Positions 22,833 through 43,143 of a stretch of 64,000 nucleotides of DNA are shown here, piece by piece. This DNA comes from Fusobacteriota bacterium. Its GTDB lineage: Bacteria; Fusobacteriota; Fusobacteriia; Fusobacteriales; JBNJFI01. The stretch spans positions 5,228 to 69,227 of the forward strand of contig JBNJFI010000003.1 in the NCBI GenBank assembly GCA_051746725.1, read 5' to 3'. The notes beneath the pieces are model-generated. The model did not search any database and was not told the DNA's origin. It worked only from the letters and a program-made list of their open reading frames with translations. A program made the position numbers and the translations under genes. Positions within the stretch are counted from its first letter, which is position 1. The number at the start of each line of letters is the position of its first letter.

Positions 22833-24526
22833 TGAGAAATAAGATGTTAAGAGTTCTATTTATTTTTATAATTTTAACAACCTCTTTATTAGGTCAAGAT
22901 GAATATGATTTAGGGGAAAAAGAAGTTATAGGGGTAGATGAAAGAGAATATAAAGAAGAGATTGAATTATCTGAATACGATCCAGATTCAGAAGAGTTAA
23001 TTTTAAATGAAGAGTTAAAAGTTGAAGAAGATTTGGAAAACGATGAATATGAAATTGCAACTGATAGTATTGATATAGAAACAAATGACAGGGAATATAA
23101 ATTAAATTACAATATTAATTTATATTCAAAACCTAAAAATGCAAACGTTATAGTTCAAGATCGTGAAAGTATGAAAGGTAACCATCTAACTTTTGCTTTA
23201 GGGGGATATGATAAAATAGATGCTTTTAAATATATTTTTGATTATACAAGAAGAGAATCCGATGATTTTACATACTTTTTACATATAGGAAGAGAAATTA
23301 AAGGAGAAGATCGACCAAACGATGATCAAAGTATAGATAATTATTATGGACAATTTTGGTATAAAAAATTAAATACTTCGATATCTCATACTATTGATGA
23401 TGAAAAATTACCAGGAATAGCAGGAGAAGATGTAGATAGTTCTTATAAAAAATCAAAGGACACAACGCTTCAGCTTAACTATAAAGCATTGGATCAAGAT
23501 TTGGTTTTGAATTCTATGATACAAAATCTAACAGTAAATAGCAATGAGTCAAAACGACAATATGACAAGTATACTTTTAATGGAGGCATAGAGTATAATG
23601 TTTCTCCATACGAAGTAGATATCTTAGATGGGATGGAAAACAGATTAACTTTAAATTTTGATTACCATATTGATCGAATCGATACAACTCAAATAAGTTC
23701 TTTAAAATTAGTTTTGGATGATAAATTTAAAGTCAACAGATTCGAAAAATGGGATGCTAACCTTAAAGTTGGGTTAGAAATGCTAATCGATAATAAGAAT
23801 GATCAAAATCATTTAGTTCAGATTGATTTAAACAGATCTATTAAGGATGATTTTAATTTTAACTTTGGAATAAAAAATGAAAGATTTTATAAAGACAGTA
23901 GTTATAAACTAGAAGCATTTACAATTGATAATGATATATTAACTGATAATTTATTAGATTTAGAGATGGAAGAAAATTTTGAAATTAAAGCAGGTATTGA
24001 GTATACCAAGAATGATTATTATGTAAACGGGAATTTAAGACATATAATTTCTAAAGATAAAATCATTTATTACCAGGATGCTATTGATACAGATTCTGAT
24101 GGAACAGATGAAGAAACAGTTATTAGAGTTGATAATGCAAATGGAAAAGAGGCTTATCAGGAACTAGAATTAGTTGGAGGGTATACATATAATCAATATA
24201 GAGGTAAATTTACTTATACATTTAATACTTTATCAGACTTACCTTTTTTGCCTCAAAATAAAGTAAAACTAAATCTAATATACGAACAAGATAAGTTAAA
24301 AATGGATTTAGAAGGAGAATATGTTTCTGAAATGTACGGAAATAAAGGTGAAACTGAAAAGTTAAAAGGCTATAAAGAACTCAATCTTTATAATTCCTAT
24401 GCAGTAAATGATAGAATGACATTAAAATTAGACTTTTTTAATTTACTTAATGTAACAGAGGATATCAAAAAAGGTTATCCAAAACCATCTAGAAAAATTA
24501 TGATGGAAATAAAAATCAAATATTAA
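22829..24526 (+). CDS. Outer-membrane beta-barrel, TonB-dependent receptor-like (compact)
   Basis: Signal peptide; TonB-box-like LGEKEVIG; alternating beta-strand patterns; TBDR-style C-terminus (GY..LNL..SY.....L.L...NLLN.....GYP...R......Y). Confidence 0.65.
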   Translation: MMRNKMLRVLFIFIILTTSLLGQDEYDLGEKEVIGVDEREYKEEIELSEYDPDSEELILNEELKVEEDLENDEYEIATDSIDIETNDREYKLNYNINLYSKPKNANVIVQDRESMKGNHLTFALGGYDKIDAFKYIFDYTRRESDDFTYFLHIGREIKGEDRPNDDQSIDNYYGQFWYKKLNTSISHTIDDEKLPGIAGEDVDSSYKKSKDTTLQLNYKALDQDLVLNSMIQNLTVNSNESKRQYDKYTFNGGIEYNVSPYEVDILDGMENRLTLNFDYHIDRIDTTQISSLKLVLDDKFKVNRFEKWDANLKVGLEMLIDNKNDQNHLVQIDLNRSIKDDFNFNFGIKNERFYKDSSYKLEAFTIDNDILTDNLLDLEMEENFEIKAGIEYTKNDYYVNGNLRHIISKDKIIYYQDAIDTDSDGTDEETVIRVDNANGKEAYQELELVGGYTYNQYRGKFTYTFNTLSDLPFLPQNKVKLNLIYEQDKLKMDLEGEYVSEMYGNKGETEKLKGYKELNLYNSYAVNDRMTLKLDFFNLLNVTEDIKKGYPKPSRKIMMEIKIKY

Positions 24527-24540
24527 AGGGGAGTGAAAAT

Positions 24541-25143
24541 ATGTTAGAAATAATTTCAGCAGGTGGTTTTTTAGTTTATATAATAATACTTTTTTCAATT
24601 TTAGGTTTGGGTGTTGTAATCGAAAGAGTTATATACTTTTCTTGGGTAGAAACTGGGAATTACGATGGATTAAAAGAAGAGGTAAAAGATCTTATTGCAG
24701 TAAATGATTTTGAATCTGCAGAGATAGTTTGCCAAAATCATGATAGTTCTGTGTCAAAAATCATAGAAACTGTTATTTCAAATAGAAACAGGAAGAAGGA
24801 AGTTTTAGATGATAAGATAAAAGAGGTTGCATTGGATCAAATTCCTGTTTTAGAAAAATTTATGTGGATATTATCAACAACGGCGCATGTTACTCCATTA
24901 ATTGGGCTATTGGGAACAGTAACTGGTATGATAAAAGCTTTTAATGTTATTGCTATCCAGGGAGTGGGAAAACCAGAAATGTTAGCCGAAGGAATTTCTC
25001 AAGCATTAATTACAACAGCGGCAGGTCTTACTGTTGCAATACCGGCTTTAGTTTGTTATAATTTTTTAAACAAAAAGATTGATTCTATTATAAATGAAAT
25101 GGAGAAATCTTCTGTTGAGTTTCTTGATCTGTTGGGGCGGTGA
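24541..25143 (+). CDS. exbB: MotA/TolQ/ExbB proton channel protein
   Basis: TPLIGLLGTVTGMIKAF, GISQALITTAAGLTVAIPA. Confidence 0.92.
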   Translation: MLEIISAGGFLVYIIILFSILGLGVVIERVIYFSWVETGNYDGLKEEVKDLIAVNDFESAEIVCQNHDSSVSKIIETVISNRNRKKEVLDDKIKEVALDQIPVLEKFMWILSTTAHVTPLIGLLGTVTGMIKAFNVIAIQGVGKPEMLAEGISQALITTAAGLTVAIPALVCYNFLNKKIDSIINEMEKSSVEFLDLLGR

Positions 25144-25559
25144 ATATAGTGAAATTTAGAAAAATAAAAAGGAGAACCGGTGGAGATATATTTCTAGAGT
25201 TAACACCATTAATAGATGTTGTGTTTTTATTATTAATATTTTTCATGGTAAGCACAACTTTTGTAGATATTAATACAGGAATCAATATTGTCCTGCCTCA
25301 TTCAACTGTGAACGAAATATCGCAGTCCAGAGAAGTTATAATCACAGTTACAGAAAAGGAAAAGATATATGTTAATAAAGAACAAGTAGATATTAATGAA
25401 TTACAATTCAAAATAGAGGAAGTCCTTATGGAAAATAAAAAGGACAATGTGATTATAAAGGCAGATAAAAATTTGTCTCATGGATTAATTGTTGATATAA
25501 TGACTAAATCTAAAAATGCAGGAGCAACAGAAATTGATATAGCAACGCAAGAGAAGTAG
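25140..25559 (+). CDS. exbD: ExbD/TolR family protein
   Basis: LTPLIDVVFLLLIFFMV, IIKADK..G.IVDIM. Confidence 0.93.
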   Translation: MNIVKFRKIKRRTGGDIFLELTPLIDVVFLLLIFFMVSTTFVDINTGINIVLPHSTVNEISQSREVIITVTEKEKIYVNKEQVDINELQFKIEEVLMENKKDNVIIKADKNLSHGLIVDIMTKSKNAGATEIDIATQEK

Positions 25560-26459
25560 GTGGGATTTATGCTAGGAAAAGAAGATAAGATATATATATA
25601 TGCAATAATAGTTTCTTTTATTGTGCATATTATATTGATAAATATATTACCTGGATTAAGGAGTTTAGAAATTGATTCAAAAGAAGAAGAAATTAAATCG
25701 GTTAAAACAAGATTTATAAAATTAAAAAAAAATAGTACCTCTGATTCAGAAGTAAAACGGGATACTCAAAAAAGTAAGATAGAAACAGAAGAATCTGGAG
25801 ATAAATTGGAGCAAGAAGAATCTCAAGTAGTCTCTGGAGAAACAGAAGAAGTTGAATTTACAGATACAATGCCAGAAGTGGATCTTTCTGCACAAAATGT
25901 AATACGGAGAGAAAATACCAGAGATATTATATTAACTAAAGAGGATGATACTACTTTCAAAAAAGGTCAAGAAGAAGTTGATTTTAAAAATAGTGATTTA
26001 AAGTTTGATTCGAATAAGAATCTTGACGAAGAAGTAGAAAATATTGAAGATAAAATACCAGTAAAAATTGAAGAAGATTTTGAAAATGGAGAAATCGCAA
26101 TCAATGTTGATGATATTGAAAATGTAGGATCAATTACAGATGTCGAAATGCCTGATGGAATAAAAAAAATTGAAGTAGAAGGAAAAGGTAGAATAACAAG
26201 CTTTGTTGGAAGGAACCCTGAATACCCAGATTTAGCTAGAAAAAGAGGATGGGAAGGGCAAGTGCATCTGGAATTTATTGTTACCGAAAATTCTGAAGTT
26301 GAAAGAGTAAATATTAAGAAAAAAAGTGGTTATGATATTTTGGATATTGAGGCCAAAAAAGAGATTTCTAATTGGCAACTACAAATTGTAAACAACGGGA
26401 TGCAAATTAGAGGAAAAGTTAATGTTATTATTGACTTTAGATTAGAATCAAAAAATTAA
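25560..26459 (+). CDS. tonB: TonB family energy transducer with acidic (non-proline-rich) linker
   Basis: N-terminal S.IVH TM anchor; C-terminal PEYPDLARKRGWEGQV...SGYDILD.EA TonB_C domain. Confidence 0.85.
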   Translation: MGFMLGKEDKIYIYAIIVSFIVHIILINILPGLRSLEIDSKEEEIKSVKTRFIKLKKNSTSDSEVKRDTQKSKIETEESGDKLEQEESQVVSGETEEVEFTDTMPEVDLSAQNVIRRENTRDIILTKEDDTTFKKGQEEVDFKNSDLKFDSNKNLDEEVENIEDKIPVKIEEDFENGEIAINVDDIENVGSITDVEMPDGIKKIEVEGKGRITSFVGRNPEYPDLARKRGWEGQVHLEFIVTENSEVERVNIKKKSGYDILDIEAKKEISNWQLQIVNNGMQIRGKVNVIIDFRLESKN

Positions 26460-26483
26460 ATTTACCATACGAGAGGAGAAACA

Positions 26484-27884
26484 GTGAAAAGTTTAGCAGT
26501 TAGAATTAAAAAAAATGCAACTAAGAAATTACAAAAGACGTTTAAGAAACATGATTATGAAATTAATTTTATAGATGAATTAGAAGAAATGTTTAATATA
26601 ATTGAAGATGGGAATACTGATGTTGTTATTTTAGATGGGGATCATTATAAATATGCAGAATTAATTGAAATAATAAAAAAAATAAAAACAGCTTCAAAAA
26701 AGGTTATAGTACTTGTTATAGGAGAACGAAGTTCTTTTAAAATTGTAGCTGGTTCAATTAAAAATGGAGCATATGATTATATATTAAAACCTATTGACTC
26801 TGTAAAAATCATGAAAATAGCTGAAAGAGCTATTAAAAACCAAAAGATTAAATCGGAAAAAGTTAAAGGCGAAAATATGATTTTAAAAGAAGATAAAATC
26901 ATTGGAACCACAAAAGAAATGGTTAATATATATAAATTAATAGGAAAAGTTTCAGAAAGCAGCATAACTACTTTAATTAATGGTGAAAGTGGTACAGGAA
27001 AGGAATTAATAGCAAAAGCTATACATAATTTTAGTGCTAATAAAAATATGCCTTTTGTTAAGATGAATTGCACATCAACGACAATGAAATCTTTCGAAAA
27101 AGAACTTTTTGGATATAAAACGGATGAGCATAACCAAAAATTAAGTAAATTTGAACTTGCTTATGGAGGAACTTTATTTTTAGAAGAGGTTTGTAATCTT
27201 GATTTGGAAATGCAATCTAAGCTATTAGAAACTATACAAAAAAATACGTTTCATAGAATCGGAGATACAAAGGAAAGAAAGCTTAATACAAGGATCATAG
27301 CATCATCAACTAAAAACTTAGAAGATATGATAGTAGAAGGAACTTTTAGAGATGATCTTTATCATAGATTAAAAGTAGTAGAATTTAACCTGCCTCCTTT
27401 AAGAGAAAGAAAAGATGATATAACACTTTTGATTAATTATTGGAGAAATTACTTTAATGATGTTTTAGAAAAAGATATTAAAGGTGTATCAAAATCAGCT
27501 ATGAAAAAAATGATGAGATATGATTGGCCTGGAAATATAAGTGAACTAAAAAATGCAGTAAAAAGCGCAATGGCAATTTGTAGAGGGGATACAATATTAA
27601 TTGAAGATCTTCCTGCTAATGTTATTAAAGCAAAGATTGCAAAGCGACATGGAGATATGCAAGACTGGGTATTAGCTGATTGGATAGAAGGAGAGATTAG
27701 TATATTAGAACAACAAGATACAGATGAACCTAATTATTACAATGGAGTAATTTCGAGGGTTGAACGTGAAGTTATTAGACAAACATTAGAAATTGCAAAT
27801 GGGAAAAAAGTAGAAACTGCTAGATTATTAGGAATAACGAGAAATACTTTGAGGTCAAAAATGAATAAATATGGTTTAGAGTAA
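26484..27884 (+). CDS. NtrC-like receiver-AAA+-Fis HTH regulator with degenerate motifs
   Basis: GAYDYILKP, GESGTGKE, FRDDLYHRL, WPGN, C-terminal ETARLLGITRNTLRSKM; lacks GAFTGA. Confidence 0.88.
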   Translation: MKSLAVRIKKNATKKLQKTFKKHDYEINFIDELEEMFNIIEDGNTDVVILDGDHYKYAELIEIIKKIKTASKKVIVLVIGERSSFKIVAGSIKNGAYDYILKPIDSVKIMKIAERAIKNQKIKSEKVKGENMILKEDKIIGTTKEMVNIYKLIGKVSESSITTLINGESGTGKELIAKAIHNFSANKNMPFVKMNCTSTTMKSFEKELFGYKTDEHNQKLSKFELAYGGTLFLEEVCNLDLEMQSKLLETIQKNTFHRIGDTKERKLNTRIIASSTKNLEDMIVEGTFRDDLYHRLKVVEFNLPPLRERKDDITLLINYWRNYFNDVLEKDIKGVSKSAMKKMMRYDWPGNISELKNAVKSAMAICRGDTILIEDLPANVIKAKIAKRHGDMQDWVLADWIEGEISILEQQDTDEPNYYNGVISRVEREVIRQTLEIANGKKVETARLLGITRNTLRSKMNKYGLE

Positions 27885-27896
27885 AGGAGCTACGTA

Positions 27897-29372
27897 ATGT
27901 ATAAAACATTATATAGAAAATATAGGCCTAAAAATTTTAATGAGATATATGGAGAAGATGATATAATAAGGGCTTTACAAAATAGTTTGAAAAATGATCA
28001 AACATCACATGCTTACTTATTTACAGGTCCAAGAGGAATAGGGAAAACTACAACTGCTCGACTAATGGCAAAGGCTTTAAACTGTGAAACAGGAGTAACA
28101 GATTCTCCTTGCAATAAGTGTAAAAATTGCAAAGGAATTGACAATGGAAACTTTTTTGATCTAATTGAAATTGATGCTGCATCCAATCGAGGAATTGATA
28201 AAATTAGAGAATTAAAAGAAAAAGTTAATTATAAACCTGTAGAAGGAAGAAAAAAAGTTTATATAATAGATGAGGTTCATATGCTTACAAAGGAAGCTTT
28301 TAATGCTCTTTTAAAAACTTTGGAAGAACCTCCTGAATATGTTGTGTTTGTTTTAGCAACAACAGAACCTTCAAAAATATTAGATACTATTATATCAAGA
28401 TGCCAAAGATATGATTTTAAACCTTTAAGCCAGGAAAAAACAGTTGAAGCATTAATGGAAATAAGCAAAAAAGAAAATATTAATATCGATATAGAAAGCC
28501 TGGAATTGATTCATATAAAATCTGGTGGAAGTTTGAGAGATGGAATCTCGATATTAGAAAAAGTTATTGCTTTTTATTATTCAGAAGATATTGATATTAC
28601 AAAGACAGAAAAAGCATTAGGGGTTATACCGAGAAAAAAGCTGGAAGAGTTTTTTGGAATAATCCAGGATAAAACAAAAACAGAAGGCTTATCATTTTTA
28701 GATAAGCTTTGGAGTGAAGGCATAGATATAGAAGAATTTTTAAAGGATTTTTCATTTTATATAAAAAATAAGATGATCAAATCTGAAGATGAATTAGAAA
28801 TAGAATTATATATTGAAATGATAGAAAATATTTATGGAGTTATCGATAAATTTAAATATGAGGAAGATAAAAGGTTATTAGGATATTTAATATTATATAA
28901 ATTAATGAGAGATAATAAAAATATTGAAAACCAAAAAAAAGTTACTTCACAGATCAACAGACAAGTTCAGCAAGAATCTCAAATAGAGGAAAGTCCTGTT
29001 GAAACTAAAAAAAATAATGTTAATATTCAGACTCCAATAAAGAACATAAAGAAAAAATGGGATGGTGTTTTAAAAGAGCTTAAGTCTCAAAAAATCTCTC
29101 TTTATGCTTTTTTGAATTCTGCATATCCAGATAGAATTCAAGACTCAAAGTTAGTTATTATTTTTCCATTTGAAAATAAATTTCATAAAACTTCCATGGA
29201 AAAGAGGAAAAATTATGATATTTTTTTAAAAATACTAGAAGACTTTTTTGGTGAAAGAATACAAGTAGAGTTTGAAATTGAAAATGGAAATTTAAAAAAG
29301 AAAAAAACTGATAATAAAATTTTAGATGATATAATAGACTTTTTTGATGGTGAAATCGTTGATATGAAATAG
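27897..29372 (+). CDS. dnaX: DNA polymerase III subunit gamma/tau
   Basis: LYRKYRP, GPRGIGKTT, Cys4 zinc motif, EIDAASNRG, IIDEVHML, SRCQ. Confidence 0.97.
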   Translation: MYKTLYRKYRPKNFNEIYGEDDIIRALQNSLKNDQTSHAYLFTGPRGIGKTTTARLMAKALNCETGVTDSPCNKCKNCKGIDNGNFFDLIEIDAASNRGIDKIRELKEKVNYKPVEGRKKVYIIDEVHMLTKEAFNALLKTLEEPPEYVVFVLATTEPSKILDTIISRCQRYDFKPLSQEKTVEALMEISKKENINIDIESLELIHIKSGGSLRDGISILEKVIAFYYSEDIDITKTEKALGVIPRKKLEEFFGIIQDKTKTEGLSFLDKLWSEGIDIEEFLKDFSFYIKNKMIKSEDELEIELYIEMIENIYGVIDKFKYEEDKRLLGYLILYKLMRDNKNIENQKKVTSQINRQVQQESQIEESPVETKKNNVNIQTPIKNIKKKWDGVLKELKSQKISLYAFLNSAYPDRIQDSKLVIIFPFENKFHKTSMEKRKNYDIFLKILEDFFGERIQVEFEIENGNLKKKKTDNKILDDIIDFFDGEIVDMK

Positions 29373-29390: not shown

Positions 29391-31088
29391 ATGAAAATGG
29401 GATCTTATATGGAATATATGTATTTAGAAAATTTAAGTACAAGGATGAGTTTGGATGAAAAGCTAAATGACATAAAACAGTTAGGAAAGTTAAGAAGTAA
29501 AGTTGCCATTCCAAAGTTAACAGAGTTAGCAAAAAATCCAGATCAAACTAAACAGATCAGAACTACTTCAATTTTAGCTTTAATTGAAATTGGAGATCAC
29601 TCTTTTCTAAAGGAGTTTGTGCCTTTTTCTGAGATCGAGGATCAAGATATTTTGGAATTACTTATAATAGCAATAGGTAAATTACATGCAATAGAACTTT
29701 TACCAGAATATAGTTCATTTATAGACTCTAAAAATAAAGATTTAAAACTTAAAATCCTAGATATTTTAAAGGGATTTGAAGATATTATAGCTGTAAAAGT
29801 TCTATTAGAATTTGTAAAAGATAAAGATTCCGAAATAAGAAATATCGCTAAAAACATTTTAAAGGAATCTAAAACTTTTCAAAATTATGTAACCCAATTA
29901 GATGAAACAGAAACACTTAATGTTATTACGTTAATTCCCAAACGTGAAGCTGAAAAATTAATTAATAAAATGATAAAAGAGACAGAAGACAAAAGAATTT
30001 TAAAAATATTGATTTCAGCTATAGGAGATTTGAAGTTAGAACATTCATTTAATTTATTAAAGAATTTATATAAAGTTCATGATATAAAAAGTCTGAGGCT
30101 TCATATAATAGATGCCTTAAATAAAACTAAAGATTTAAGGCATAAAGAATTTTACCTAGATTTACTTAATGCTCCAAATATAAATAGAGAGATTAAAGCA
30201 AAATTAATTTTTGCTTTAGAAAAATATCTTGATGATAGAGTAGTAGTAGAAGAAATTTTTGAAATAATCGAGAACAGTTCTCAATGGTGGATGTTAAGAA
30301 AAGTCTCTATCTTAGTCTTATCTAATAATTTAAATAAGAAAGATCTAGATAGGTTATTAGAAATATTGGAGACTGAAAAAGATAGTAGAGTTATTAGAAC
30401 TCTTATTGAAGTCATGGGAGAAGCTGGCGTATTTGAAGAAGAAAAATATATTAATATTGGTAGAAAATATTTAGATTCAGAAAGCAGTAGTGTCAAAAAA
30501 GTTACGATATTAGCTCTTTCAAAATTAGGAGATAAAAGTGTATTGGAAATTTTATTAAGAGATGAAAAGCTTCGAATTCAAATGTTGCCAGATTCTTTAA
30601 AAGCACTTACTAATTTTAATGATCCTAGAATAATTGAGATTCTTTTAGATAATTTAAATTCAGATGATGATGAATTAATAAAAATTTCAATTAATGGTTT
30701 GGCTCAATATAATGACAAAAAAATTGAAGAAAAGTTAATTAGATTTATACAAAAAGATGATACTAAAAGAGAATATAAAACAAAATTAATTATGATATTA
30801 TCTAATTATAAAACTGAAAAAGTTTCTAAGCTCTTCAAAAATATTTTGAATGATGAATCAGCATGGTGGATGCTAAAAAAAGTAGTAATTATAGCCATTG
30901 GAGAGCAAGAAAACTATAATTTGATAAAATCTATAATAAAGCACACTAAAAATTTAGATTCTCGAATATCAAAAAATGCAAAATATGTAGCAAAGCAATT
31001 TTATACAAATAAGTTATTAAGTGAGATAAAAGATAAAAAAAATCTTTATAATTTTGCCAAGGAATATATAGAAATATTTTCGTCATAA
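29391..31088 (+). CDS. HEAT-repeat protein
   Basis: Repeated HEAT-like units (SILALIEIGD, IIAIGKL, ILALSKLGD, IIAIGE) and a duplicated WWML motif. Confidence 0.8.
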   Translation: MKMGSYMEYMYLENLSTRMSLDEKLNDIKQLGKLRSKVAIPKLTELAKNPDQTKQIRTTSILALIEIGDHSFLKEFVPFSEIEDQDILELLIIAIGKLHAIELLPEYSSFIDSKNKDLKLKILDILKGFEDIIAVKVLLEFVKDKDSEIRNIAKNILKESKTFQNYVTQLDETETLNVITLIPKREAEKLINKMIKETEDKRILKILISAIGDLKLEHSFNLLKNLYKVHDIKSLRLHIIDALNKTKDLRHKEFYLDLLNAPNINREIKAKLIFALEKYLDDRVVVEEIFEIIENSSQWWMLRKVSILVLSNNLNKKDLDRLLEILETEKDSRVIRTLIEVMGEAGVFEEEKYINIGRKYLDSESSSVKKVTILALSKLGDKSVLEILLRDEKLRIQMLPDSLKALTNFNDPRIIEILLDNLNSDDDELIKISINGLAQYNDKKIEEKLIRFIQKDDTKREYKTKLIMILSNYKTEKVSKLFKNILNDESAWWMLKKVVIIAIGEQENYNLIKSIIKHTKNLDSRISKNAKYVAKQFYTNKLLSEIKDKKNLYNFAKEYIEIFSS

Positions 31089-31109
31089 ATAAAAATAATA
31101 CAGGGGGTA

Positions 31110-32804
31110 ATGATGACTGAATTAATTATTTTGATTATTGTTTTGATAGTAGTTTTATACTCAATTAAGTTGCTAAAGCAAAAAAGAAATCTCCACCAAA
31201 ACCTAGAAGAGTTAAAAGAAGAAAATCGAAAATTAGAAAAAGGGATATCAGCTTTTCATGATAAAGCCGCCTCTTCTATTAATAAAATTAGAAATTTAAA
31301 AAATGAAAGTGATTTAGAGACTTTTCAAGAAACAATGCTTGAAATGCTTATCGATTTAGACTTTGCTGAGGGAGGATATCTTTTAGAAAATAAAAATGGT
31401 AAACTAGAACTTTTTTCTCAAAAAGGAGATTTAGAGATATCAGATAAAATATTAAATTTAAACGCAAAAGATAATACGGATGCATGGGAATATTTAAAAA
31501 GAAATGAAGTGATACGCTTAAATGATCAAGATGAAAAAATACTTGATTTCATTTTGCAAGAGATAAATGATGGATATTTAATTACGTTAAAAGAAAGTCA
31601 AATTGACAAAAAAGATATTTTTAGCATAATTATAATATATGGTTCCCAAATGACAAGTACTTATTTAGAAAGCGATACCCTTTTTATGGAGTTTATCGTA
31701 ACAGAATTAGAATTAATGATTAATAATATTTTAAAGAATAAAGAATTGGAAAAAAGTAATAAAAAATTAACTGAAAAACTGTATAATCTTATGTCGCTTA
31801 ATTTTGCAGCAAAAATGATATCTTCGGAATTAGAATTTAAAGATATTTTTAAAAATTCTATAGATATGTTTATGGAAATAGGTGGTGCATATTCAGGAGC
31901 CTTTATGTATAGCAACGAAGATAAAAATCAACTCATAATAAAAAGTATAGCTGGCGATTTAGATAAAAAATATAAAAATCAAGAAGTCAAACTTTCAGAT
32001 GAGACTAAGAAGAAATTAAAAAATGTAAAAGATATTATAATTTTTAATAAAGATGCTGATATGGAATTATCTGAAGTTAAAAATAATGAAATCATAAAAA
32101 ATATAAAGGCAAAAATATATATTCCTATTTTTATAAAAGATTCTTTTTTAGGGGCAATTTTATTAGGAGAAAAACAAAATGAGCAGCCATATTCAAAAGA
32201 TAATATTGAATTATTAAATACGCTTTCGACTCAAGTGGGAGTTTCTTTAAATAATGCAAGGCTGTATAATTCAGCAATTCGAGATGGTATGACTAAATTA
32301 TATTTAAATACATACTTTAAAAGTCGGTTAGCTTCAGAAATTTACAGAAGTAGAAGATATGATAGTAATTTATCATTAATAATGATTGATATAGATCATT
32401 TTAAAAATTTCAATGATACTTATGGTCATCAAACAGGTGATAAAGTTTTAATTGAAGTTGCGAACATTTTAAAAGAAAATACAAGAAGTAGTGATATTGT
32501 TTCAAGATATGGAGGAGAAGAGTTTGCCATAATTCTTCCTGAAACGGGTATGGATTCTAGTAAAATAGTAGCTGAAAATATACGAAAAAAAGTCGAATCA
32601 AAAAAGATTAAAGATAAATCAAAGATACTTAGTGTAACAATTAGTTTAGGCATATTTACTTTAGAATCTGGGGAAAGTGAAATATCCGGGCAAGAATTCA
32701 TAGAAAATGCGGATAAAACCCTGTATTATTCAAAAGAAAATGGAAGAAATCAATTTAATCATTACGATGATGTAAAGGAGAAATTGGATGGAAAAGATTC
32801 TTAA
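31110..32804 (+). CDS. Membrane-anchored GAF-containing diguanylate cyclase
   Basis: N-terminal TM and coiled coil; GAF (LGAILLGEK...IELLNTLSTQVGVSLNNARLY); DIDHFKNFNDTYGH; I-site RSSD; GGEEF. Confidence 0.93.
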   Translation: MMTELIILIIVLIVVLYSIKLLKQKRNLHQNLEELKEENRKLEKGISAFHDKAASSINKIRNLKNESDLETFQETMLEMLIDLDFAEGGYLLENKNGKLELFSQKGDLEISDKILNLNAKDNTDAWEYLKRNEVIRLNDQDEKILDFILQEINDGYLITLKESQIDKKDIFSIIIIYGSQMTSTYLESDTLFMEFIVTELELMINNILKNKELEKSNKKLTEKLYNLMSLNFAAKMISSELEFKDIFKNSIDMFMEIGGAYSGAFMYSNEDKNQLIIKSIAGDLDKKYKNQEVKLSDETKKKLKNVKDIIIFNKDADMELSEVKNNEIIKNIKAKIYIPIFIKDSFLGAILLGEKQNEQPYSKDNIELLNTLSTQVGVSLNNARLYNSAIRDGMTKLYLNTYFKSRLASEIYRSRRYDSNLSLIMIDIDHFKNFNDTYGHQTGDKVLIEVANILKENTRSSDIVSRYGGEEFAIILPETGMDSSKIVAENIRKKVESKKIKDKSKILSVTISLGIFTLESGESEISGQEFIENADKTLYYSKENGRNQFNHYDDVKEKLDGKDS

Positions 32805-33849
32805 TAAAGGAGAAGAGGAAATATTAAAACAAATTAAAACCATAACAGAGTTAACGGCTGTTCCTGGAAATGAGATAAAGCGAGCTCAATATATCCAAAA
32901 GTTATTTTTTGAATATGGTAGCGAGCCACCTATTATTGATGTTCAAGGAAATGTTATAGGGAAATTATCTTCTAAAAGTTCCAAAGACCCGTTAATTTTA
33001 TTTGCTCATCTAGATAGTCATGAAAATACAAAAAAAGTAAAAATAACTCATACTCAATTAATAGGAGATGGACTTTTATCCAATGCAATTGGCTTATATA
33101 ATTTAGCGCTTATGATTAACGCCTTAAAAGATAAAGAAATATCTAGAGATATTTTTTTTATTGGAACTACTGGAGGCTTAACTAATTATAATGGGATAAA
33201 ATACTTTTTGAAAAACTTCAAAAAAGATATCAAGTCAATTATAAATATAAAAGGAAGTAGTTTAGGAGAATATCATAATGCAACAAATGCTTCTATGGAA
33301 ATTAAAGTTGAATTTGAAAAAGATGAGAGCTACCTTAAAAATAATGTTGTTTTAGGAATTGCAAACTTTATAAATAAAATAAAAGAAGAAGAATTTAATA
33401 AGGATTTATATTATCATATTAATAACATACGTACTGATTTAGAACATATAAATATACCGAATACAGGATCGATGACTCTTCGGTTAGAGGGAAAAACTTT
33501 GGAAATGATCAAAAGAAGTGAGTTAATACTCAAAAACATAAAAGAAGGAGTTTCACAAGAAGATAATATTGAAATATATTTTACAGAAAAAAATATACAT
33601 GGGGAAGTACTTGCAACTAATAATAAATTGCGAGATTACTATATTGAAGTTTTAAAAGGATTCAAAGTGAATTCAAAAAAAATTCTAAATTCAAATGAAA
33701 TTGAAATTCCTTTACAGAATGAAATTGATTCCATTTCGATCGGAGTTGCAAATGGGGGATATACTAGAGATGGAGAAGAGACTCTTGAAATAAAATCTAT
33801 ATACACAGGAACCAAAATTTTATATAAATATCTAGATAAATTACTTTAA
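32788..33849 (+). CDS. M20/M28 peptidase-fold protein, probably catalytically degenerate
   Basis: QGNVIG, FAHLD retained; the usual second Asp and Glu-Glu motif appear replaced (LSNAIG; TTGGL). Confidence 0.6.
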   Translation: MEKILNKGEEEILKQIKTITELTAVPGNEIKRAQYIQKLFFEYGSEPPIIDVQGNVIGKLSSKSSKDPLILFAHLDSHENTKKVKITHTQLIGDGLLSNAIGLYNLALMINALKDKEISRDIFFIGTTGGLTNYNGIKYFLKNFKKDIKSIINIKGSSLGEYHNATNASMEIKVEFEKDESYLKNNVVLGIANFINKIKEEEFNKDLYYHINNIRTDLEHINIPNTGSMTLRLEGKTLEMIKRSELILKNIKEGVSQEDNIEIYFTEKNIHGEVLATNNKLRDYYIEVLKGFKVNSKKILNSNEIEIPLQNEIDSISIGVANGGYTRDGEETLEIKSIYTGTKILYKYLDKLL

Positions 33850-33879
33850 TAAATGATTAGAAATGAGGAGTTGGATTAG

Positions 33880-34353
33880 TTGAATAATGTAAAAATATTA
33901 GAAGAAATCCAAAAAGACATAAACAATGATAATGCTTTAAAAGGGTTAGAAAAACTAGCAAATTATACTGATGAAAATGGTCCTATTGATTTTCAAGACA
34001 TAAAAAAAATTATATTTCCATTATTTGAAAGTGATAATAAATTTGTTAGAATTAAATTAACTGAAATTGCTCAAAGCTATAAAAGTAATGAAATATTACT
34101 TAAGTTAATAAAACTCATGAAAGAAGATGAAGATTACTTTGTCAGAGGTTTTGCTGCTAAAACTCTTGGAATGTTAGGTAATATAAGTGCTAAACCAGCT
34201 TTACAAGAGGCTTTAAATGATGATGAAAAATTTGTAACAGAATTTGCACAAAAATCATTGGAAAAATTAACAACAAAAGTTTCATTTAATAATAAAATTG
34301 CCTCTTTAAGGGCAAAGATGCAAGAAAAAAAGAAGATGAGTAAAAATGATTAA
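33880..34353 (+). CDS. Small HEAT-repeat protein
   Basis: DEDYFVRGFAAKTLGMLG, ALNDDEKFVTEFAQKSL. Confidence 0.8.
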   Translation: MNNVKILEEIQKDINNDNALKGLEKLANYTDENGPIDFQDIKKIIFPLFESDNKFVRIKLTEIAQSYKSNEILLKLIKLMKEDEDYFVRGFAAKTLGMLGNISAKPALQEALNDDEKFVTEFAQKSLEKLTTKVSFNNKIASLRAKMQEKKKMSKND

Positions 34354-35167
34354 TTTTGTAATGAAAAGTTTTTTAATGTATATAGTTTCAATGTTTTTTC
34401 CAATAATAGGGTTTTTTATCCCTATAATTGGAATAAAGGAGTTTAGGTCTAATAAAAAGAATAATATTCTAGTTGGTCATTTAATAATCTCTTTTTTGAT
34501 ATTATTATTATTCAATTTAAATTTTGTGATTCATTATATTTTTATTTATGTTGGAATGGAAATTATATTTATTTTTCTAGATAAAAAAAATAATTTTAAT
34601 ATATATCAAAAAGTGATAATAACTTCCTTAGTATTTACTATTTTCATAGGACTTTATATAAAAATAAATATTAATCAGATGGAACAAATATTAAATGAAA
34701 CCCAAAATATATATGTATCAAATTTTGGTTTTGATAAGGAAAATATAGAATTAGTAATGCAAACTCTGGAAAAATATTTTTTAAGCATAATTTTTATATA
34801 CTTCTTTTTTGAAAACTATATGATTTATTTTATTCTCAAAAAAGATCAGAAGAGTCAGTGGGATTTTAATTATTATTTATTACTCATATATATTTTAGTA
34901 TTTTTTCTAAAGAATATATTGCAATATAATAATAATTATATAATAAATATTTTACTAATATTGAAAATACCATATATTTTTTATGGTATAAGAAAAAGTT
35001 ATGAAAAACTAGAAAAAGTTATAAAAAATAAATTTCTAAGGTCATTGATGGTTATATCAGTTACGATGATATCTTATAATATTATGTTTATTATAGGGAG
35101 TATTATAAGTTTTAAAATTTTTAAGGAGGGAATTGAAGATGAAAGTAATATTACAAAAAGACATTAA
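34346..35167 (+). CDS. Multi-pass membrane protein (YybS/DUF2232-like)
   Basis: Multiple TM segments; overlaps the start of rplI as yybS-type genes do. Confidence 0.5.
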
Positions 35168-35588
35168 GGGAACTGGAAAAAAAGGTGAAATTGTTACTGC
35201 AAAAGAAGGATATGCTAGAAATTATTTAATTCCAAAAGGTTTAGCTAAGCAAGCAACTGATGGGAATTTAAAAAAATTTAAAAATAAGAAAAAAATGAAG
35301 AAGCAAAAAAAGAAAAGAATCAGACAGGAAGCAAAGGAACAAGCAGAAAATTTAAATGGTAAACAAGTCAAATTAAGATTAAAAGCTGGTAAAAATGGAA
35401 AAACATTTGGATCAGTAAGTAACAAAGATGTTGCAAGTCGTTTAAAAAAAGAATATGGAATCAAGATAGATAAGAAAAAAATTGAATTAGAAGAATCTCA
35501 TCTGAAAAATATAGGAACTTATGATGCAATAATAAAATTACACCCTGATGTAGAAACAAAGATAAAAGTTGTAATTGAAAGTGTTTAA
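35139..35588 (+). CDS. rplI: 50S ribosomal protein L9
   Basis: [44 protein letters not shown]; ATG 35139 after AAGGAGG. Confidence 0.97.
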
Positions 35589-35617
35589 ACAGGAAAGTTA
35601 AGAAATTAGGAGGAAAA

Positions 35618-36943
35618 ATGGAAAAAGTAAAAACTCTGCCATATAATTTAGAAGCTGAAGAATCAATACTAGGAGGAATATTACTAAAACCAGATTCAAT
35701 TGCCAGAGTTTTAGAAATTCTCAAAAAAGATGATTTTTATAAATTAGCACATAAAATCATATATGAAACTATGCTAAAAACATATGAACAAGGAGAAGTA
35801 ATAGACACAGTTTTGCTAATAGATAAAATAAAAAAAGAAAATAATATCGATAAAATTGGTGGCGAAGAACGTATATTTGAATTGTTAAATTCTGTTCCTA
35901 TGGCTGCAAATATTATAAATTATGCAAAAATTGTAAAGGAAAAGTCAATATTACGAAGTGTAATCGAAGTTGGAACTGAAGTAGTAGAAATGGCTTATGA
36001 AGGAACAGAAGGAGTAGATAAGATACTCGACAAAGCAGAAAATATGATATTTGGGGTTTCGGAACAAAAAGAGAAAAAAGAGGTAGTATCATTAAAAGAT
36101 TTAGTAGATGATGAATTTGATAGATTAGAACAGGTATATGAAAATAAAGGAGATGTTACTGGAATTGGGTCAGGATTTACTCAATTTGATGAGATGACTT
36201 CTGGATTTCATCCGTCAGATTTAGTTATATTAGCTGCTAGACCAAGTATGGGGAAAACAGCTTTTGCTCTTAATTTAGCTTTAAATGCTGGATTGAAGCA
36301 AGATAAAAGTGTTTTGATATTTAGTTTAGAAATGTCAAATTCTCAAATATTTCAAAGATTAATATCTTCAGAATCTCAAGTACCTTTGAATAAATTACGT
36401 AATGGTTATTTAGGATCAGAAGAATGGACTAAAGTTGGACTCTCTACTGGTAGATTAGCAGAAGCTTCTATTCATGTAGCTGATATGCCTAATATAACTG
36501 TCATGGAGATTAGAGCTATTAGTAGAAGGCTCAAAGCTGAAAATAAATTAGATTTAATATTAATAGATTATTTGCAATTAATACAGGGAAGTGGTCGTGA
36601 TAGCAGACAACAAGAAATCTCTGAAATATCTAGAAGTTTAAAGGGATTAGCAAGGGAACTTGATGTCCCCGTTCTTTCTTTATCTCAATTATCCAGAGCC
36701 CCTGAACAACGATCAGATAGACGGCCGATTTTATCTGATTTAAGAGATTCAGGTGCAATAGAACAAGATGCAGATGTTGTTGTATTTTTATATAGAGATG
36801 ATTATTATGATGAAGATAGTGAAGAAAAAGGAATAGCAGAGATTATAATAGGAAAACAAAGAAATGGTCCTGTTGGAACAGTTAAATTGCGATTTTTCCA
36901 TGAAATTACTAAGTTTGGAAATCTTACAAGGAGAGAGAGGTAG
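35618..36943 (+). CDS. dnaB: Replicative DNA helicase
   Basis: LPYNLEAEES, LAARPSMGKT, FSLEM, DYLQL, SQLSRAPE, SGAIEQDAD, KQRNGPVG; no intein. Confidence 0.98.
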   Translation: MEKVKTLPYNLEAEESILGGILLKPDSIARVLEILKKDDFYKLAHKIIYETMLKTYEQGEVIDTVLLIDKIKKENNIDKIGGEERIFELLNSVPMAANIINYAKIVKEKSILRSVIEVGTEVVEMAYEGTEGVDKILDKAENMIFGVSEQKEKKEVVSLKDLVDDEFDRLEQVYENKGDVTGIGSGFTQFDEMTSGFHPSDLVILAARPSMGKTAFALNLALNAGLKQDKSVLIFSLEMSNSQIFQRLISSESQVPLNKLRNGYLGSEEWTKVGLSTGRLAEASIHVADMPNITVMEIRAISRRLKAENKLDLILIDYLQLIQGSGRDSRQQEISEISRSLKGLARELDVPVLSLSQLSRAPEQRSDRRPILSDLRDSGAIEQDADVVVFLYRDDYYDEDSEEKGIAEIIIGKQRNGPVGTVKLRFFHEITKFGNLTRRER

Positions 36944-42012: not shown

Positions 42013-43143
42013 GTGAAGGAGGAAGAAATGATTAATCAAAAAAGAATAATAAAAAATTTCATTGAAATGGCTGAGATATCTTCTCCCTCTTTAAATGAAA
42101 AAGAGATGGCCGAATATTTATTACAAAAATTGAAGAGTTTAGACTTAGAAATATTAGAAGATGGATCTAATAAAATACCAAATGGAAACTGCGGAAATAT
42201 AATCGCCAGGTTACCAGGATCTGGAGATTCCATAATGTTTAGTGCTCATCTGGATACAGTAACTCCCTGTGAAAACATTAAAGCAATAGAAAATAAAAAT
42301 ATAATCCAATCTAAAGGAGATACAATATTAGGGGGAGATGATAAAGCAGGAATTGCTGCTATTATCGAAATGATAGAAGTAATAAGGGAAAACGATATAC
42401 CTCACCCCGATATATTTTTAGTATTTAGTGTTGCAGAAGAAATTGGATTAAAAGGTGCTAGGGAAATAGAACTAGAAAAATATAGTGATATTAAATATGG
42501 CTTTGTGCTAGATGCATCAGGTTCTCCTGGAACAGTCGCAATTCAAGCTCCTTACCAAGATGAAATAAAATTAAGATTTATAGGGAAAGCAGCTCATGCA
42601 GGAATAGAACCTGAAAAAGGTATAAATGCTTTATATATGGCTTCTAAAGCGATATCAAAATTAGAAATGGGACAAATAGATGAATTATCTACTCTGAATC
42701 TCGGAATAGTAAAAGGTGGTTCAGCCACAAATATCGTAATGGAAGAACTTTTTATAAAAGGTGAAAGTCGTAGTTTTTCTGAAAAAAGGTTAGGTGAAAA
42801 TGTTGAAAAAGTTATTGAAATTTCTAGAAATACTGCTGAAAAATTTGGCGGGAATTTAGATTATGAGATAACCAGGCAATATAATGGGTTCAAATTAAAA
42901 GAAGATAGCAAAATATTAAAGTTAATAAAAAAATCATCTCAAAATATAAATTTAGATTTTATAACTGAAAAGTCTGGTGGTGGAAGCGATACTAATATAT
43001 ATAATGAGTTAGGGATTCCAACGGCAAATCTAGGAATTGGAATGAAAAAGGTTCATTCAACTGAAGAGAATATATTAAAAAAAGATTTAATTGATTCATC
43101 AAGATTAATATTAGAAATAACAAAAGAGTATTATAAGCAATGA
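42013..43143 (+). CDS. M20/M25/M40 family metallopeptidase (peptidase T-like)
   Basis: AHLDTV, GGDDKAG, VAEEIG, LD, AHAG, GGSD, VHSTEE: complete metal-ligand set. Confidence 0.92.
   Translation: MKEEEMINQKRIIKNFIEMAEISSPSLNEKEMAEYLLQKLKSLDLEILEDGSNKIPNGNCGNIIARLPGSGDSIMFSAHLDTVTPCENIKAIENKNIIQSKGDTILGGDDKAGIAAIIEMIEVIRENDIPHPDIFLVFSVAEEIGLKGAREIELEKYSDIKYGFVLDASGSPGTVAIQAPYQDEIKLRFIGKAAHAGIEPEKGINALYMASKAISKLEMGQIDELSTLNLGIVKGGSATNIVMEELFIKGESRSFSEKRLGENVEKVIEISRNTAEKFGGNLDYEITRQYNGFKLKEDSKILKLIKKSSQNINLDFITEKSGGGSDTNIYNELGIPTANLGIGMKKVHSTEENILKKDLIDSSRLILEITKEYYKQ

What the first reader, a model, noticed from the sequence alone, without database searches (positions are those of the whole stretch)
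29391..34353. Four-gene c-di-GMP module: HEAT scaffold, GAF-GGDEF cyclase, pseudo-peptidase, small HEAT protein
Seen: four closely spaced or overlapping genes between dnaX and the yybS-like/rplI/dnaB block. The cyclase is membrane-anchored with an intact GGEEF and RxxD I-site. It is flanked by two HEAT-repeat proteins and overlaps (17 bp) an M20-fold gene lacking catalytic residues. From memory of fusobacterial gene order, dnaX normally adjoins the membrane gene-rplI-dnaB block, so this looks like an inserted unit (unverified). I know of no described system with this composition. Inference: a localised signalling complex in which the dead peptidase senses a ligand and HEAT proteins scaffold the cyclase, plausibly controlling the flagellum encoded 15 kb downstream.
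Basis: partly seen in the sequence, partly recalled or inferred. Interest (0 to 1): 0.75.

Follow-up and report, generated by a model that had tools for sequence, protein, structure and literature searches.

The report
Flagellum-linked fusobacterial c-di-GMP cyclase cluster
Four tightly packed genes (a large HEAT-repeat protein, a GAF-GGDEF c-di-GMP cyclase, a catalytically dead M20 peptidase-fold protein and a small HEAT protein) form an old, vertically inherited cluster in the rare flagellated Fusobacteriales, but only the cyclase tracks the flagellum, and the other three are dispensable or separable add-ons rather than parts of an obligate four-protein machine.

Summary
Four co-directional ORFs (29391-34353) lie between dnaX and a YybS-like membrane gene, rplI and dnaB. 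Domains and motifs are as described: GGEEF, RxxD I-site, one N-terminal TM helix, and an M20 fold without its catalytic residues.

The window is from an uncultured Fusobacteriales genome. The same cluster sits in the same slot in Haliovirga abyssi and in other families, so it is ancestral and was eroded stepwise, not inserted.

A census of 187 Fusobacteriales genomes shows nested occurrence:
- Cyclase: 10 genomes in 7 genera.
- HEAT565: 6 genomes.
- HEAT157: 4 genomes.
- Pseudo-M20: those 6 plus 3 genomes of a non-flagellate genus, where it stands alone under purifying selection (dN/dS 0.06).

The cyclase's distribution equals that of FlhA (9 genomes plus one 70%-complete genome). It matches exactly that of the genome's only PilZ protein, a YcgR-type protein. 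Yet 85 of the 187 genomes carry GGDEF proteins.

The most likely reading is a motility-dedicated cyclase feeding a YcgR-type flagellar brake, with lineage-variable partner proteins. Two caveats apply. The co-occurrence needs only about two independent losses, and no interaction was tested. I class it as a new variant of a known kind, of moderate interest.

The parts
27897..29372 (+). dnaX (clamp-loader tau/gamma). Upstream anchor of the conserved slot.
   Evidence: Pfam DNA_pol3_delta2 at 185 bits plus DnaX_C. It flanks the cluster in every genome examined.
29391..31088 (+). HEAT565: a 565-aa cytoplasmic all-HEAT (PBS-lyase-type) repeat protein with two conserved WWM(L/I)(K/R)K motifs.
   Evidence: HEAT_2 100 bits in 3 stretches, plus HEAT_PBS. 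No TM helix or signal peptide. Orthologues at 35-42% identity occur only in 6 of 187 Fusobacteriales genomes, always next to the cyclase. Only 9 clusters were found in 5.8 billion proteins, and the three that carry a source name are Fusobacteriia, including Haliovirga abyssi.
31110..32804 (+). Membrane-anchored diguanylate cyclase: TM helix (1-25), coiled coil, GAF-like domain (~65-215), long helix, GAF (242-380), GGDEF (389-548).
   Evidence: GGDEF 156 bits and GAF_2 31.6 bits. GGEEF at 468 and RxxD at 459. GGEEF, RxxD and the DxD metal site are invariant in 8 orthologues. The secondary-structure pattern of a low-confidence AF2 model (pLDDT 67.5) fits this architecture.
32788..33849 (+). Pseudo-M20: an M20/M28-fold protein (catalytic plus lid/dimerisation domain) without the metal-binding and catalytic residues. 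It overlaps the cyclase gene by 17 nt.
   Evidence: AF2 pLDDT 84. Foldseek: PahZ2 7LJH E=8e-26, PepT, DapE. The profile hits 7LJH at E=1e-19. The EE motif and C-terminal His are absent in 13 of 13 family members. The family has only about 14 representatives among 1.84 billion.
33880..34353 (+). HEAT157: a small cytoplasmic HEAT_2 protein that overlaps the next gene by 8 nt.
   Evidence: HEAT_2 40.7 bits. Orthologues occur in only 4 genomes, those of families f1, f3 and f5, plus metagenomic contigs L040 and L041. It is not a copy of part of HEAT565.
34346..35167 (+). YybS-like multi-pass membrane protein. It belongs to the conserved backbone, not to the variable module.
   Evidence: About 6 hydrophobic segments. 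Two orthologues give only sub-threshold full-length matches to DUF2232 (E=0.26 and 0.065). It is present between dnaX and rplI even where the module is absent, but absent in f5 and f4.
35139..36943 (+). rplI and dnaB. Downstream anchor of the slot.
   Evidence: ORFs. rplI orthologues were found in all 10 genomes queried. DnaB is 47-74% identical across the order.

Best explanation
The locus is an ancestral, vertically inherited gene cluster of the order Fusobacteriales. It occupies a fixed slot between dnaX and (yybS-like)-rplI-dnaB.

Its core is a catalytically competent tandem-GAF diguanylate cyclase with product feedback through an I-site. This cyclase is kept only in the lineages that still have a flagellum and a YcgR-type PilZ protein. 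I infer that it supplies the c-di-GMP that the YcgR-like brake reads at the flagellar motor, so the GAF-sensed input slows or stops swimming.

HEAT565, the pseudo-M20 and HEAT157 are lineage-variable accessory proteins, co-transcribed and partly translationally coupled with the cyclase. I infer that they act as partner or adaptor proteins that localise or modulate the membrane-anchored cyclase in the deep-branching families. They are not required for it. The pseudo-M20 also has a function of its own.

What is shown: the anatomy, the intact motifs, the dead M20 site, conserved synteny, nested occurrence, the shared phyletic pattern with FlhA and YcgR, and purifying selection on the orphan pseudo-M20.

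What is inferred: enzymatic activity, the route through YcgR, and any protein-protein contact.
For: Anatomy and motifs.

The same cluster and flanks occur in Haliovirga abyssi (f3), two f5 MAGs, genus g18 and four metagenomic contigs.

Census of 187 genomes:
- The cyclase sensor region (aa 1-385) is in 10 genomes of 7 genera.
- FlhA is in 9 of those 10 genomes and nowhere else. The tenth is a 70%-complete genome of a FlhA-positive genus.
- The YcgR-type PilZNR+PilZ protein, the only PilZ in this genome, is in exactly the same 10 genomes.
- GGDEF proteins in general occur in 85 of 187 genomes, including many non-flagellate genera with up to 18 or more copies. The pattern is therefore specific to this cyclase.

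In g16 and g21 the slot holds the cyclase alone, 32% identical over its full length. HEAT565 occurs in 6 genomes and HEAT157 in 4, always with the cyclase.

The cyclase/pseudo-M20 junction overlaps or is at most 4 nt in 4 of 5 lineages. No + strand terminator lies between 24 and 41 kb.

The DnaX+DnaB tree places the non-flagellate Fusobacteriaceae clade inside the carriers. Its earliest branch, g20, retains a relic of the cluster.
Against: - On the 11-genome tree the perfect co-occurrence needs only 2 independent loss events. With phylogeny taken into account the statistical support is weak, and any gene lost together with motility would show the same pattern.
- The whole neighbourhood (tonB, sigma-54 activator, dnaX, rplI, dnaB, GH15) is syntenic across the order. 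Conserved adjacency of the four genes therefore does not by itself prove functional coupling.
- The genome has 16 other GGDEF proteins that could equally feed YcgR.
- The pseudo-M20 is maintained without the cyclase in g20 (dN/dS 0.063).
- fliF is not linked to the cluster in other genomes.
- No expression, interaction or activity data exist.
- The cyclase structure model is of low confidence.
Confidence: 0.5

Rival explanations
1. One reading: an obligate four-protein signalling complex. The dead peptidase binds a ligand and the two HEAT proteins scaffold the cyclase at a defined site, the whole controlling the flagellum.
For: All four genes occur together in f1, f3 and f5 with overlapping or near-abutting reading frames. 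HEAT157 co-occurs perfectly with the TM-anchored form of the cyclase, 4 of 4 against 0 of 6. Polar residues around the former M20 active site (D76, N153, D314, E331) are invariant in 7 family members, which would fit a retained binding pocket. One g20 copy of the orphan pseudo-M20 is frameshifted.
Against: The cyclase stands alone in the flagellate genera g16 and g21. HEAT157 is absent in g18. The pseudo-M20 persists alone under strong purifying selection in g20. No interaction was tested. The co-occurrence of the TM anchor with HEAT157 may reflect a single event at the base of Fusobacteriaceae.
Confidence: 0.15
2. Neighbours by history only. The four genes are functionally unrelated passengers of a very stable chromosomal backbone (tonB to dnaB), and each has been lost independently as lifestyles changed. 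The pseudo-M20 may work with the YybS-like membrane protein or in envelope or replication-linked housekeeping. The HEAT proteins would have unrelated roles.
For: Synteny extends over 12 or more genes of unrelated function. The pseudo-M20 is retained and constrained without the others, and overlaps the membrane gene by 8 nt in g20. Occurrence of the four genes is not all-or-none. Only 2 loss events are needed to explain the flagellar correlation.
Against: HEAT565 is never found without the cyclase, and HEAT157 is never found without the other three. Both HEAT families and the pseudo-M20 family appear essentially confined to this slot. About 14 pseudo-M20 representatives exist in 1.84 billion proteins, and every context examined is this locus. 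Reading-frame overlaps between the cyclase and pseudo-M20, and between pseudo-M20 and HEAT157, are conserved.
Confidence: 0.25
3. A horizontally acquired island, either mobile or an anti-phage defence unit with a nucleotide cyclase plus effector-like partners, inserted between dnaX and rplI.
For: Fusobacterium-like genera have dnaX directly next to membrane gene-rplI-dnaB. A cyclase plus a peptidase-fold protein superficially recalls signalling defence systems. There are weak PADLOC hits to HEAT-repeat segments.
Against: G+C is 0.245-0.268, like the rest of the window. No tRNA genes were found in the window. No defence-family hit for the cyclase or the pseudo-M20. The same slot and order occur in 4 of 5 families, with 30-40% protein identity, as expected for vertical descent. 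Lineages that lack it are nested among carriers.
Confidence: 0.03

Closest known systems
Myxococcus xanthus DmxA (TMD, two GAF domains, GGDEF diguanylate cyclase; PMC11255338)
   Same: A membrane-anchored cyclase with two GAF-type domains before an active GGDEF with an I-site. DmxA affects motility behaviour, and its membrane part determines where it acts.
   Different: DmxA has six TM helices and is recruited to the divisome. It controls type IV pilus and gliding polarity, not a flagellum. No HEAT or M20-fold neighbours are described for it. No sequence-level orthology was tested or claimed.
Enterobacterial and Bacillus c-di-GMP motor braking: DGCs feeding YcgR or MotI (PilZNR+PilZ) at the flagellar motor (e.g. 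PMC12713396, PMC3913639)
   Same: The genome encodes a single YcgR-type protein with RxxxR and DxSxxG motifs. That protein, the flagellar export gate FlhA and this cyclase share one phyletic pattern.
   Different: In model organisms several DGCs feed YcgR, and none has a dedicated conserved locus with HEAT or pseudo-peptidase neighbours. The functional link here is inferred from co-occurrence only.
NCBIfam NF041606, diguanylate cyclase DgcA (GAF-GGDEF, 340-position model)
   Same: Best full-architecture profile match. It covers residues 222-548, i.e. GAF plus GGDEF (E=1e-55, 189 bits).
   Different: The score is far below the equivalog cut-off of 370. The window protein also has a TM helix, a coiled coil and a first GAF-like domain of about 220 residues.
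M20 dinuclear metallopeptidases and amidohydrolases (PahZ2 7LJH, PepT, DapE)
   Same: Same two-domain fold (TM-score 0.75 to 7LJH) and recognisable sequence homology (E=1e-19).
   Different: The catalytic Glu-Glu and the C-terminal His ligand are missing in every family member, and the other ligands in most. It is a pseudoenzyme family. An intact M20 paralogue lies 8 kb downstream at 42013-43143.
PBS-lyase-type HEAT proteins (CpcE/CpcF, NblB, E. coli YibA-like)
   Same: HEAT_2 and HEAT_PBS repeats. Weak NblB and CpcE profile matches, far below cut-off.
   Different: There are no phycobiliproteins in Fusobacteria, and scores are 60 against a cut-off of 300, and 28 against 330. The resemblance is in repeat type only.
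Firmicutes yybS-gdpP(yybT)-rplI-dnaC neighbourhood (from my own knowledge of the Bacillus subtilis gene order)
   Same: A YybS-like membrane gene, rplI and the replicative helicase are adjacent, with a GGDEF-domain cyclic-dinucleotide enzyme encoded next to them.
   Different: GdpP is a c-di-AMP phosphodiesterase with a degenerate GGDEF domain, and it lies between yybS and rplI. Here an active-looking c-di-GMP cyclase lies upstream of the membrane gene. The DUF2232 match is sub-threshold.

Membership tests
GGDEF diguanylate cyclases (PF00990 / TIGR00254) | GGDEF domain above the curated cut-off | tested here: met
   PF00990 at 155.8 bits (cut-off 23.8); TIGR00254 at 175 bits (cut-off 37.4).
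GGDEF diguanylate cyclases (PF00990 / TIGR00254) | Intact GG(D/E)EF active-site motif and metal-binding Asp residues | tested here: met
   GGEEF at 468-472. D427, D429, N435, D444 and GGEEF are invariant in 8 orthologues.
GGDEF diguanylate cyclases (PF00990 / TIGR00254) | RxxD inhibitory site five residues upstream of GGDEF (a feature of product-inhibited DGCs, not of all) | tested here: met
   R459-S-S-D462. R459 and D462 are invariant.
GGDEF diguanylate cyclases (PF00990 / TIGR00254) | Synthesis of c-di-GMP from GTP | not testable with these tools
   Needs an enzyme assay.
DgcA equivalog (NF041606) | Score at or above the equivalog cut-off (370 bits) | tested here: not met
   189 bits. It is not filed as DgcA.
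M20 metallopeptidases (PF01546 / MEROPS M20) | Two-domain M20 fold | tested here: met
   AF2 pLDDT 84. Foldseek hits to PahZ2, PepT and DapE at E of 1e-20 to 1e-26.
M20 metallopeptidases (PF01546 / MEROPS M20) | Five metal ligands (His, bridging Asp, Glu, Asp/Glu, His) and the catalytic Glu of the EE motif | tested here: not met
   The window protein keeps only H74 and D76. EE is replaced by GG, the bridging Asp by Ser, the third acidic ligand by Lys and the C-terminal His by Arg. EE and the C-terminal His are absent in 13 of 13 family members. It is therefore a pseudoenzyme, not an M20 peptidase.
HEAT_2 repeat proteins (PF13646) | Repeat profile above the gathering score | tested here: met
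   100.1 bits (565-aa protein) and 40.7 bits (157-aa protein), against a cut-off of 27.7.
Phycobilin lyase / NblB equivalogs | Score at or above the NCBIfam cut-off | tested here: not met
   59.9 against 300 for NblB; 28.5 against 330 for CpcE.
YcgR/MotI-type c-di-GMP flagellar brake (the proposed effector, encoded elsewhere in the genome) | PilZNR plus PilZ domains with RxxxR and (D/N)xSxxG motifs | tested here: met
   PF12945 at 56 bits and PF07238 at 55 bits. The sequence shows RRNFVR and DLSGGG. Binding and braking were not tested.
YybS / DUF2232 membrane proteins (PF09991) | Profile match above the gathering score (27.8) | tested here: not met
   10.9 and 12.8 bits, though the matches span the full length. 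Only 'YybS-like' can be said.
Anti-phage defence systems (PADLOC) | Hits to defence-system protein models for the cyclase or effector | tested here: not met
   Only generic HEAT-repeat similarity for the two HEAT proteins. No hit for the cyclase or the pseudo-M20.

The most novel reading that the evidence does not exclude
In deep-branching flagellated Fusobacteriota, a membrane-anchored tandem-GAF cyclase is assembled with a 565-aa HEAT solenoid, a small HEAT adaptor and a ligand-binding pseudo-M20 into a localised c-di-GMP 'signalosome'. It sits at or near the flagellar motor and drives a YcgR-type brake. This would be a previously undescribed way of giving one of about 17 cyclases a private output, and a new job for the M20 fold as a sensor.
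Probability: 0.15. Interest if true: 0.65.

Novelty: new variant of a known kind. Interest (0 to 1): 0.42.

Why it matters
How one diguanylate cyclase among many gets a specific output is a standing problem in c-di-GMP biology. This locus offers a natural series for that question. The same cyclase occurs with 0, 2 or 3 dedicated neighbours in related genomes, and one of the carriers, Haliovirga abyssi, is cultured.

The result also defines two very small, lineage-restricted protein families: a pseudo-M20 with about 14 representatives in 1.84 billion proteins, and a 560-aa HEAT protein. It adds a regulatory component to the barely studied flagellum of Fusobacteriota.

If the neighbours turn out to be unrelated passengers, the finding reduces to an ordinary GAF-GGDEF cyclase in a conserved syntenic block.

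Tried and rejected
- Word-indexed homology searches with the pseudo-M20 and with the cyclase sensor region returned almost nothing beyond the query. The full HMMER scan was needed instead.
- The genome-contig scan found only two named MAGs.
- Long M20 relatives were checked for fusions to signalling domains and none was found.
- More distant degenerate M20 relatives (P0016, P0019) were examined in case they sit beside HEAT or GGDEF genes in other phyla. Their contexts are unrelated.
- The weak M20 hit 6 kb from rplI in g22 was tested as a possible active ancestor in the slot. It is an ordinary M20 peptidase outside the slot.
- HEAT157 was tested as a duplicate of part of HEAT565 and is not one.
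- The intact M20 paralogue at 42013-43143 was tested as a recent source of the pseudo-M20. Identity is only 28% over the N-terminal 150 residues.
- Promoter and terminator scans gave no signal above shuffled controls.
- The defence-system reading was rejected.
- Literature searches for HEAT plus DGC plus flagellum, and for c-di-GMP in Fusobacteria, found nothing relevant.
- Loci from genomes other than the window's own are not available in the Python box, so synteny was read through the ORF listing.

Full report
**1. Observation**

- HEAT565: 29391-31088
- Cyclase: 31110-32804
- M20-fold protein: 32788-33849
- HEAT157: 33880-34353

All are on the + strand. Intergenic distances are +21, -17 and +30 nt, with 18 nt after dnaX and an 8-nt overlap into the next gene.

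Pfam and NCBIfam confirm HEAT_2 repeats in both HEAT proteins. They confirm GAF plus GGDEF in the cyclase and a weak Peptidase_M28 match in the third protein.

The cyclase has one N-terminal hydrophobic helix (1-25) followed by basic residues. It carries GGEEF at 468 and RSSD five residues upstream of it. None of the other three has a TM segment or signal peptide, so all are cytoplasmic.

The G+C of the region (0.245-0.268) does not differ from the rest of the window. The window has no tRNA genes.

**2. The pseudo-peptidase**

A profile of four orthologues hits poly(aspartic acid) hydrolase PahZ2 (7LJH) at E=1e-19. An AlphaFold model built on 7 sequences has pLDDT 84. It superposes on PahZ2, PepT, DapE and other M20 enzymes, with Foldseek E of 1e-20 to 1e-26 and TM-score up to 0.77.

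Against active relatives, the window protein keeps only H74 and D76. The bridging Asp is Ser, the Glu-Glu motif is Gly-Gly, the third acidic ligand is Lys and the C-terminal His is Arg.

Across the 13 members of the core family, the EE motif and the C-terminal His are absent in all. The first His survives in 3. This is an old pseudoenzyme family, not a recently broken gene.

An exhaustive HMMER scan of 1.84 billion representatives finds only about 14 members at E<1e-30. After that there is a sharp drop to ordinary M20 proteins.

**3. Where the window comes from, and conservation**

The window is contig C3 of a 2.18-Mb assembly that forms its own family within Fusobacteriales.

The same four genes occur in the same order, between tonB-sigma54 activator-dnaX and (membrane gene)-rplI-dnaB, in three further genomes:
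- G002, which is Haliovirga abyssi
- G004 (family f5)
- G007 (family f5). Its contig breaks inside the cyclase gene, and HEAT565 lies on another contig.

Metagenomic contigs carrying other family members show the same arrangement. Protein identities to the window are 35-42% for HEAT565, about 38% for the cyclase, 29-32% for the pseudo-M20 and 39-45% for HEAT157.

**4. Census of the order (187 genomes)**

| Component | Genomes holding it |
|---|---|
| Cyclase sensor region (aa 1-385, excluding GGDEF) | 10 genomes in 7 genera |
| HEAT565 | 6 of those 10 |
| HEAT157 | 4 of those 10 |
| Pseudo-M20 | the same 6 as HEAT565, plus 3 genomes of genus g20 |

The slot between dnaX and rplI takes every intermediate form:
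- Nothing at all: f4, where dnaX directly adjoins rplI.
- Membrane gene only: g2, g17 and g22.
- Pseudo-M20 plus membrane gene: g20.
- Cyclase plus membrane gene: g16 and g21.
- HEAT565, cyclase, pseudo-M20 and membrane gene: g18 and contig L043.
- All four plus membrane gene: f1 and f3.
- All four without the membrane gene: f5.

A DnaX+DnaB maximum-likelihood tree of 11 representatives splits Fusobacteriaceae in two. One clade is flagellate: (g18,(g16,g21)). The other is non-flagellate: (g20,(g17,(g2,g22))). Genus g20, the one with the relic, branches first within the non-flagellate clade.

The cluster is therefore ancestral and was eroded stepwise. 'Inserted unit' is not supported.

**5. Link to the flagellum**

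FlhA is found in 9 genomes, all among the 10 that have the cyclase. The tenth is a 70%-complete genome of a FlhA-positive genus.

The window's genome has a single PilZ protein of 229 aa. It has PilZNR and PilZ domains and the RRNFVR and DLSGGG motifs, so it is a YcgR/MotI-type protein. Its orthologues occur in exactly the same 10 genomes as the cyclase.

By contrast, GGDEF proteins in general occur in 85 of 187 genomes, including non-flagellate genera with many copies. The window's genome has 17. The phyletic pattern is thus specific to this one cyclase.

This is the best evidence for function: the cyclase, the YcgR-type effector and the flagellum are kept and lost together.

Two cautions apply:
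- On the 11-genome tree the pattern needs only two loss events.
- The 14-kb proximity to the flagellar operon in this window is not conserved. fliF is 565 kb from the cluster in Haliovirga and on different contigs elsewhere.

**6. Are the four a unit?**

For coupling:
- HEAT565 never occurs without the cyclase.
- HEAT157 never occurs without the other three.
- The three accessory families appear essentially confined to this slot.
- The cyclase/pseudo-M20 junction overlaps or is at most 4 nt in four of five lineages.
- No + strand terminator occurs between 24 and 41 kb.
- The N-terminal TM helix of the cyclase is present only in the lineages that also have HEAT157.

Against an obligate complex:
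- The cyclase stands alone in two flagellate genera.
- In g20 the pseudo-M20 survives without the cyclase, either HEAT protein, FlhA or YcgR.
- Two g20 species differ by 50 synonymous but only 15 non-synonymous changes in the pseudo-M20. That gives dN/dS 0.063, so it has a function of its own.
- A third g20 copy is frameshifted. This could be real decay or an assembly error.
- The whole region, including unrelated housekeeping genes, is syntenic across the order, which weakens inference from adjacency alone.

**7. Mechanism proposed**

What is shown: an active-looking, product-inhibitable cyclase. Its predicted layout is TM helix, coiled coil, GAF-like domain, helix, GAF, GGDEF. Only a low-confidence model supports the first GAF-like domain.

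What is inferred: an unknown cytoplasmic signal acts on the GAF domains. The cyclase then raises c-di-GMP, which the YcgR-type protein reads at the motor to slow swimming. HEAT565, HEAT157 and the pseudo-M20 act as adaptors or modulators of the membrane-anchored form in the deep families. The pseudo-M20 may use the conserved polar remnants of the old active site (D76, N153, D314, E331) to bind a ligand or a partner.

I put about 0.5 on this package. The ancestral-locus and active-cyclase parts are much more secure than the partner part.

**8. Comparison with known systems**

The closest architecture is M. xanthus DmxA: a TM domain, two GAF domains and GGDEF with an I-site, localised through its membrane part (PMC11255338). 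DmxA serves a different motility system and has no such neighbours.

The closest logic is c-di-GMP braking through YcgR or MotI. The best profile match, DgcA NF041606, is far below its cut-off. No paper in the searchable library describes a cyclase with HEAT and pseudo-M20 partners. Defence-system and mobile-element readings are rejected.

**9. Verdict**

This is a real, conserved, lineage-restricted cluster whose core is an ordinary type of enzyme with an unusual, variable entourage. I class it as a new variant of a known kind, with interest 0.42.

Noticed in passing
window 42013-43143 (+): An intact M20/M42-type peptidase paralogue (Peptidase_M20, M20_dimer, M42) lies 8 kb downstream of the pseudo-M20. 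It is only 28% identical over the N-terminal ~150 residues, and its HxD, bridging-D and EE motifs are visible in that alignment. It is not a recent duplicate.
   Followed up: partly
window 34346-35167 (+) with rplI and dnaB: The membrane gene gives sub-threshold but full-length matches to DUF2232 (YybS). The arrangement YybS-like, rplI, replicative helicase next to a GGDEF-domain enzyme echoes yybS-gdpP-rplI-dnaC of Firmicutes. This could be an ancient link between this neighbourhood and cyclic-dinucleotide enzymes, or coincidence.
   Followed up: partly
G000:C23:1612-2301 (-), outside the window: This is the genome's only PilZ protein. It is a 229-aa YcgR/MotI-type protein (PilZNR+PilZ, RRNFVR and DLSGGG motifs). 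In the order it is confined to the same 10 genomes as the cyclase.
   Followed up: yes
L010:5876-7789 (Haliovirga), L028:11135-13051 (g18), L043:10603-12540: A Lon-like AAA+ protease (~640 aa, Lon_C plus Sigma54_activat/AAA) is inserted between rplI and dnaB in Haliovirga, g18 and f5 (G007). It is absent from that position in the window.
   Followed up: no
L023 (G122:C1:29957-30946): The g20 copy of the pseudo-M20 in G122 is broken by several frameshifts, which read as 23 stops when read through. Its two congeners are intact and constrained. This is either real decay or assembly error.
   Followed up: partly
window 19998-27884 and the same genes in L010, L011, L027, L043, L049: The TPR protein, barrel, ExbB, ExbD, TonB and an NtrC-type sigma-54 activator upstream of dnaX are syntenic across the order, in flagellate and non-flagellate genera alike. 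In g18 and g21 the activator gene is missing between tonB and dnaX.
   Followed up: no
window 1-64000: Essentially every credible gene in 64 kb is on the + strand and GC skew is strongly positive throughout (0.16-0.38). Co-directionality therefore carries no operon information here.
   Followed up: no
P0016, P0019, P0022 (metagenomic proteins; loci L050-L052): A second, more distant set of M20-fold proteins of about 390 aa also lacks the EE motif. They have unrelated contexts: a glycosyltransferase and a chemoreceptor in one case, a sulfatase in another. Dead M20 proteins have therefore arisen more than once.
   Followed up: partly
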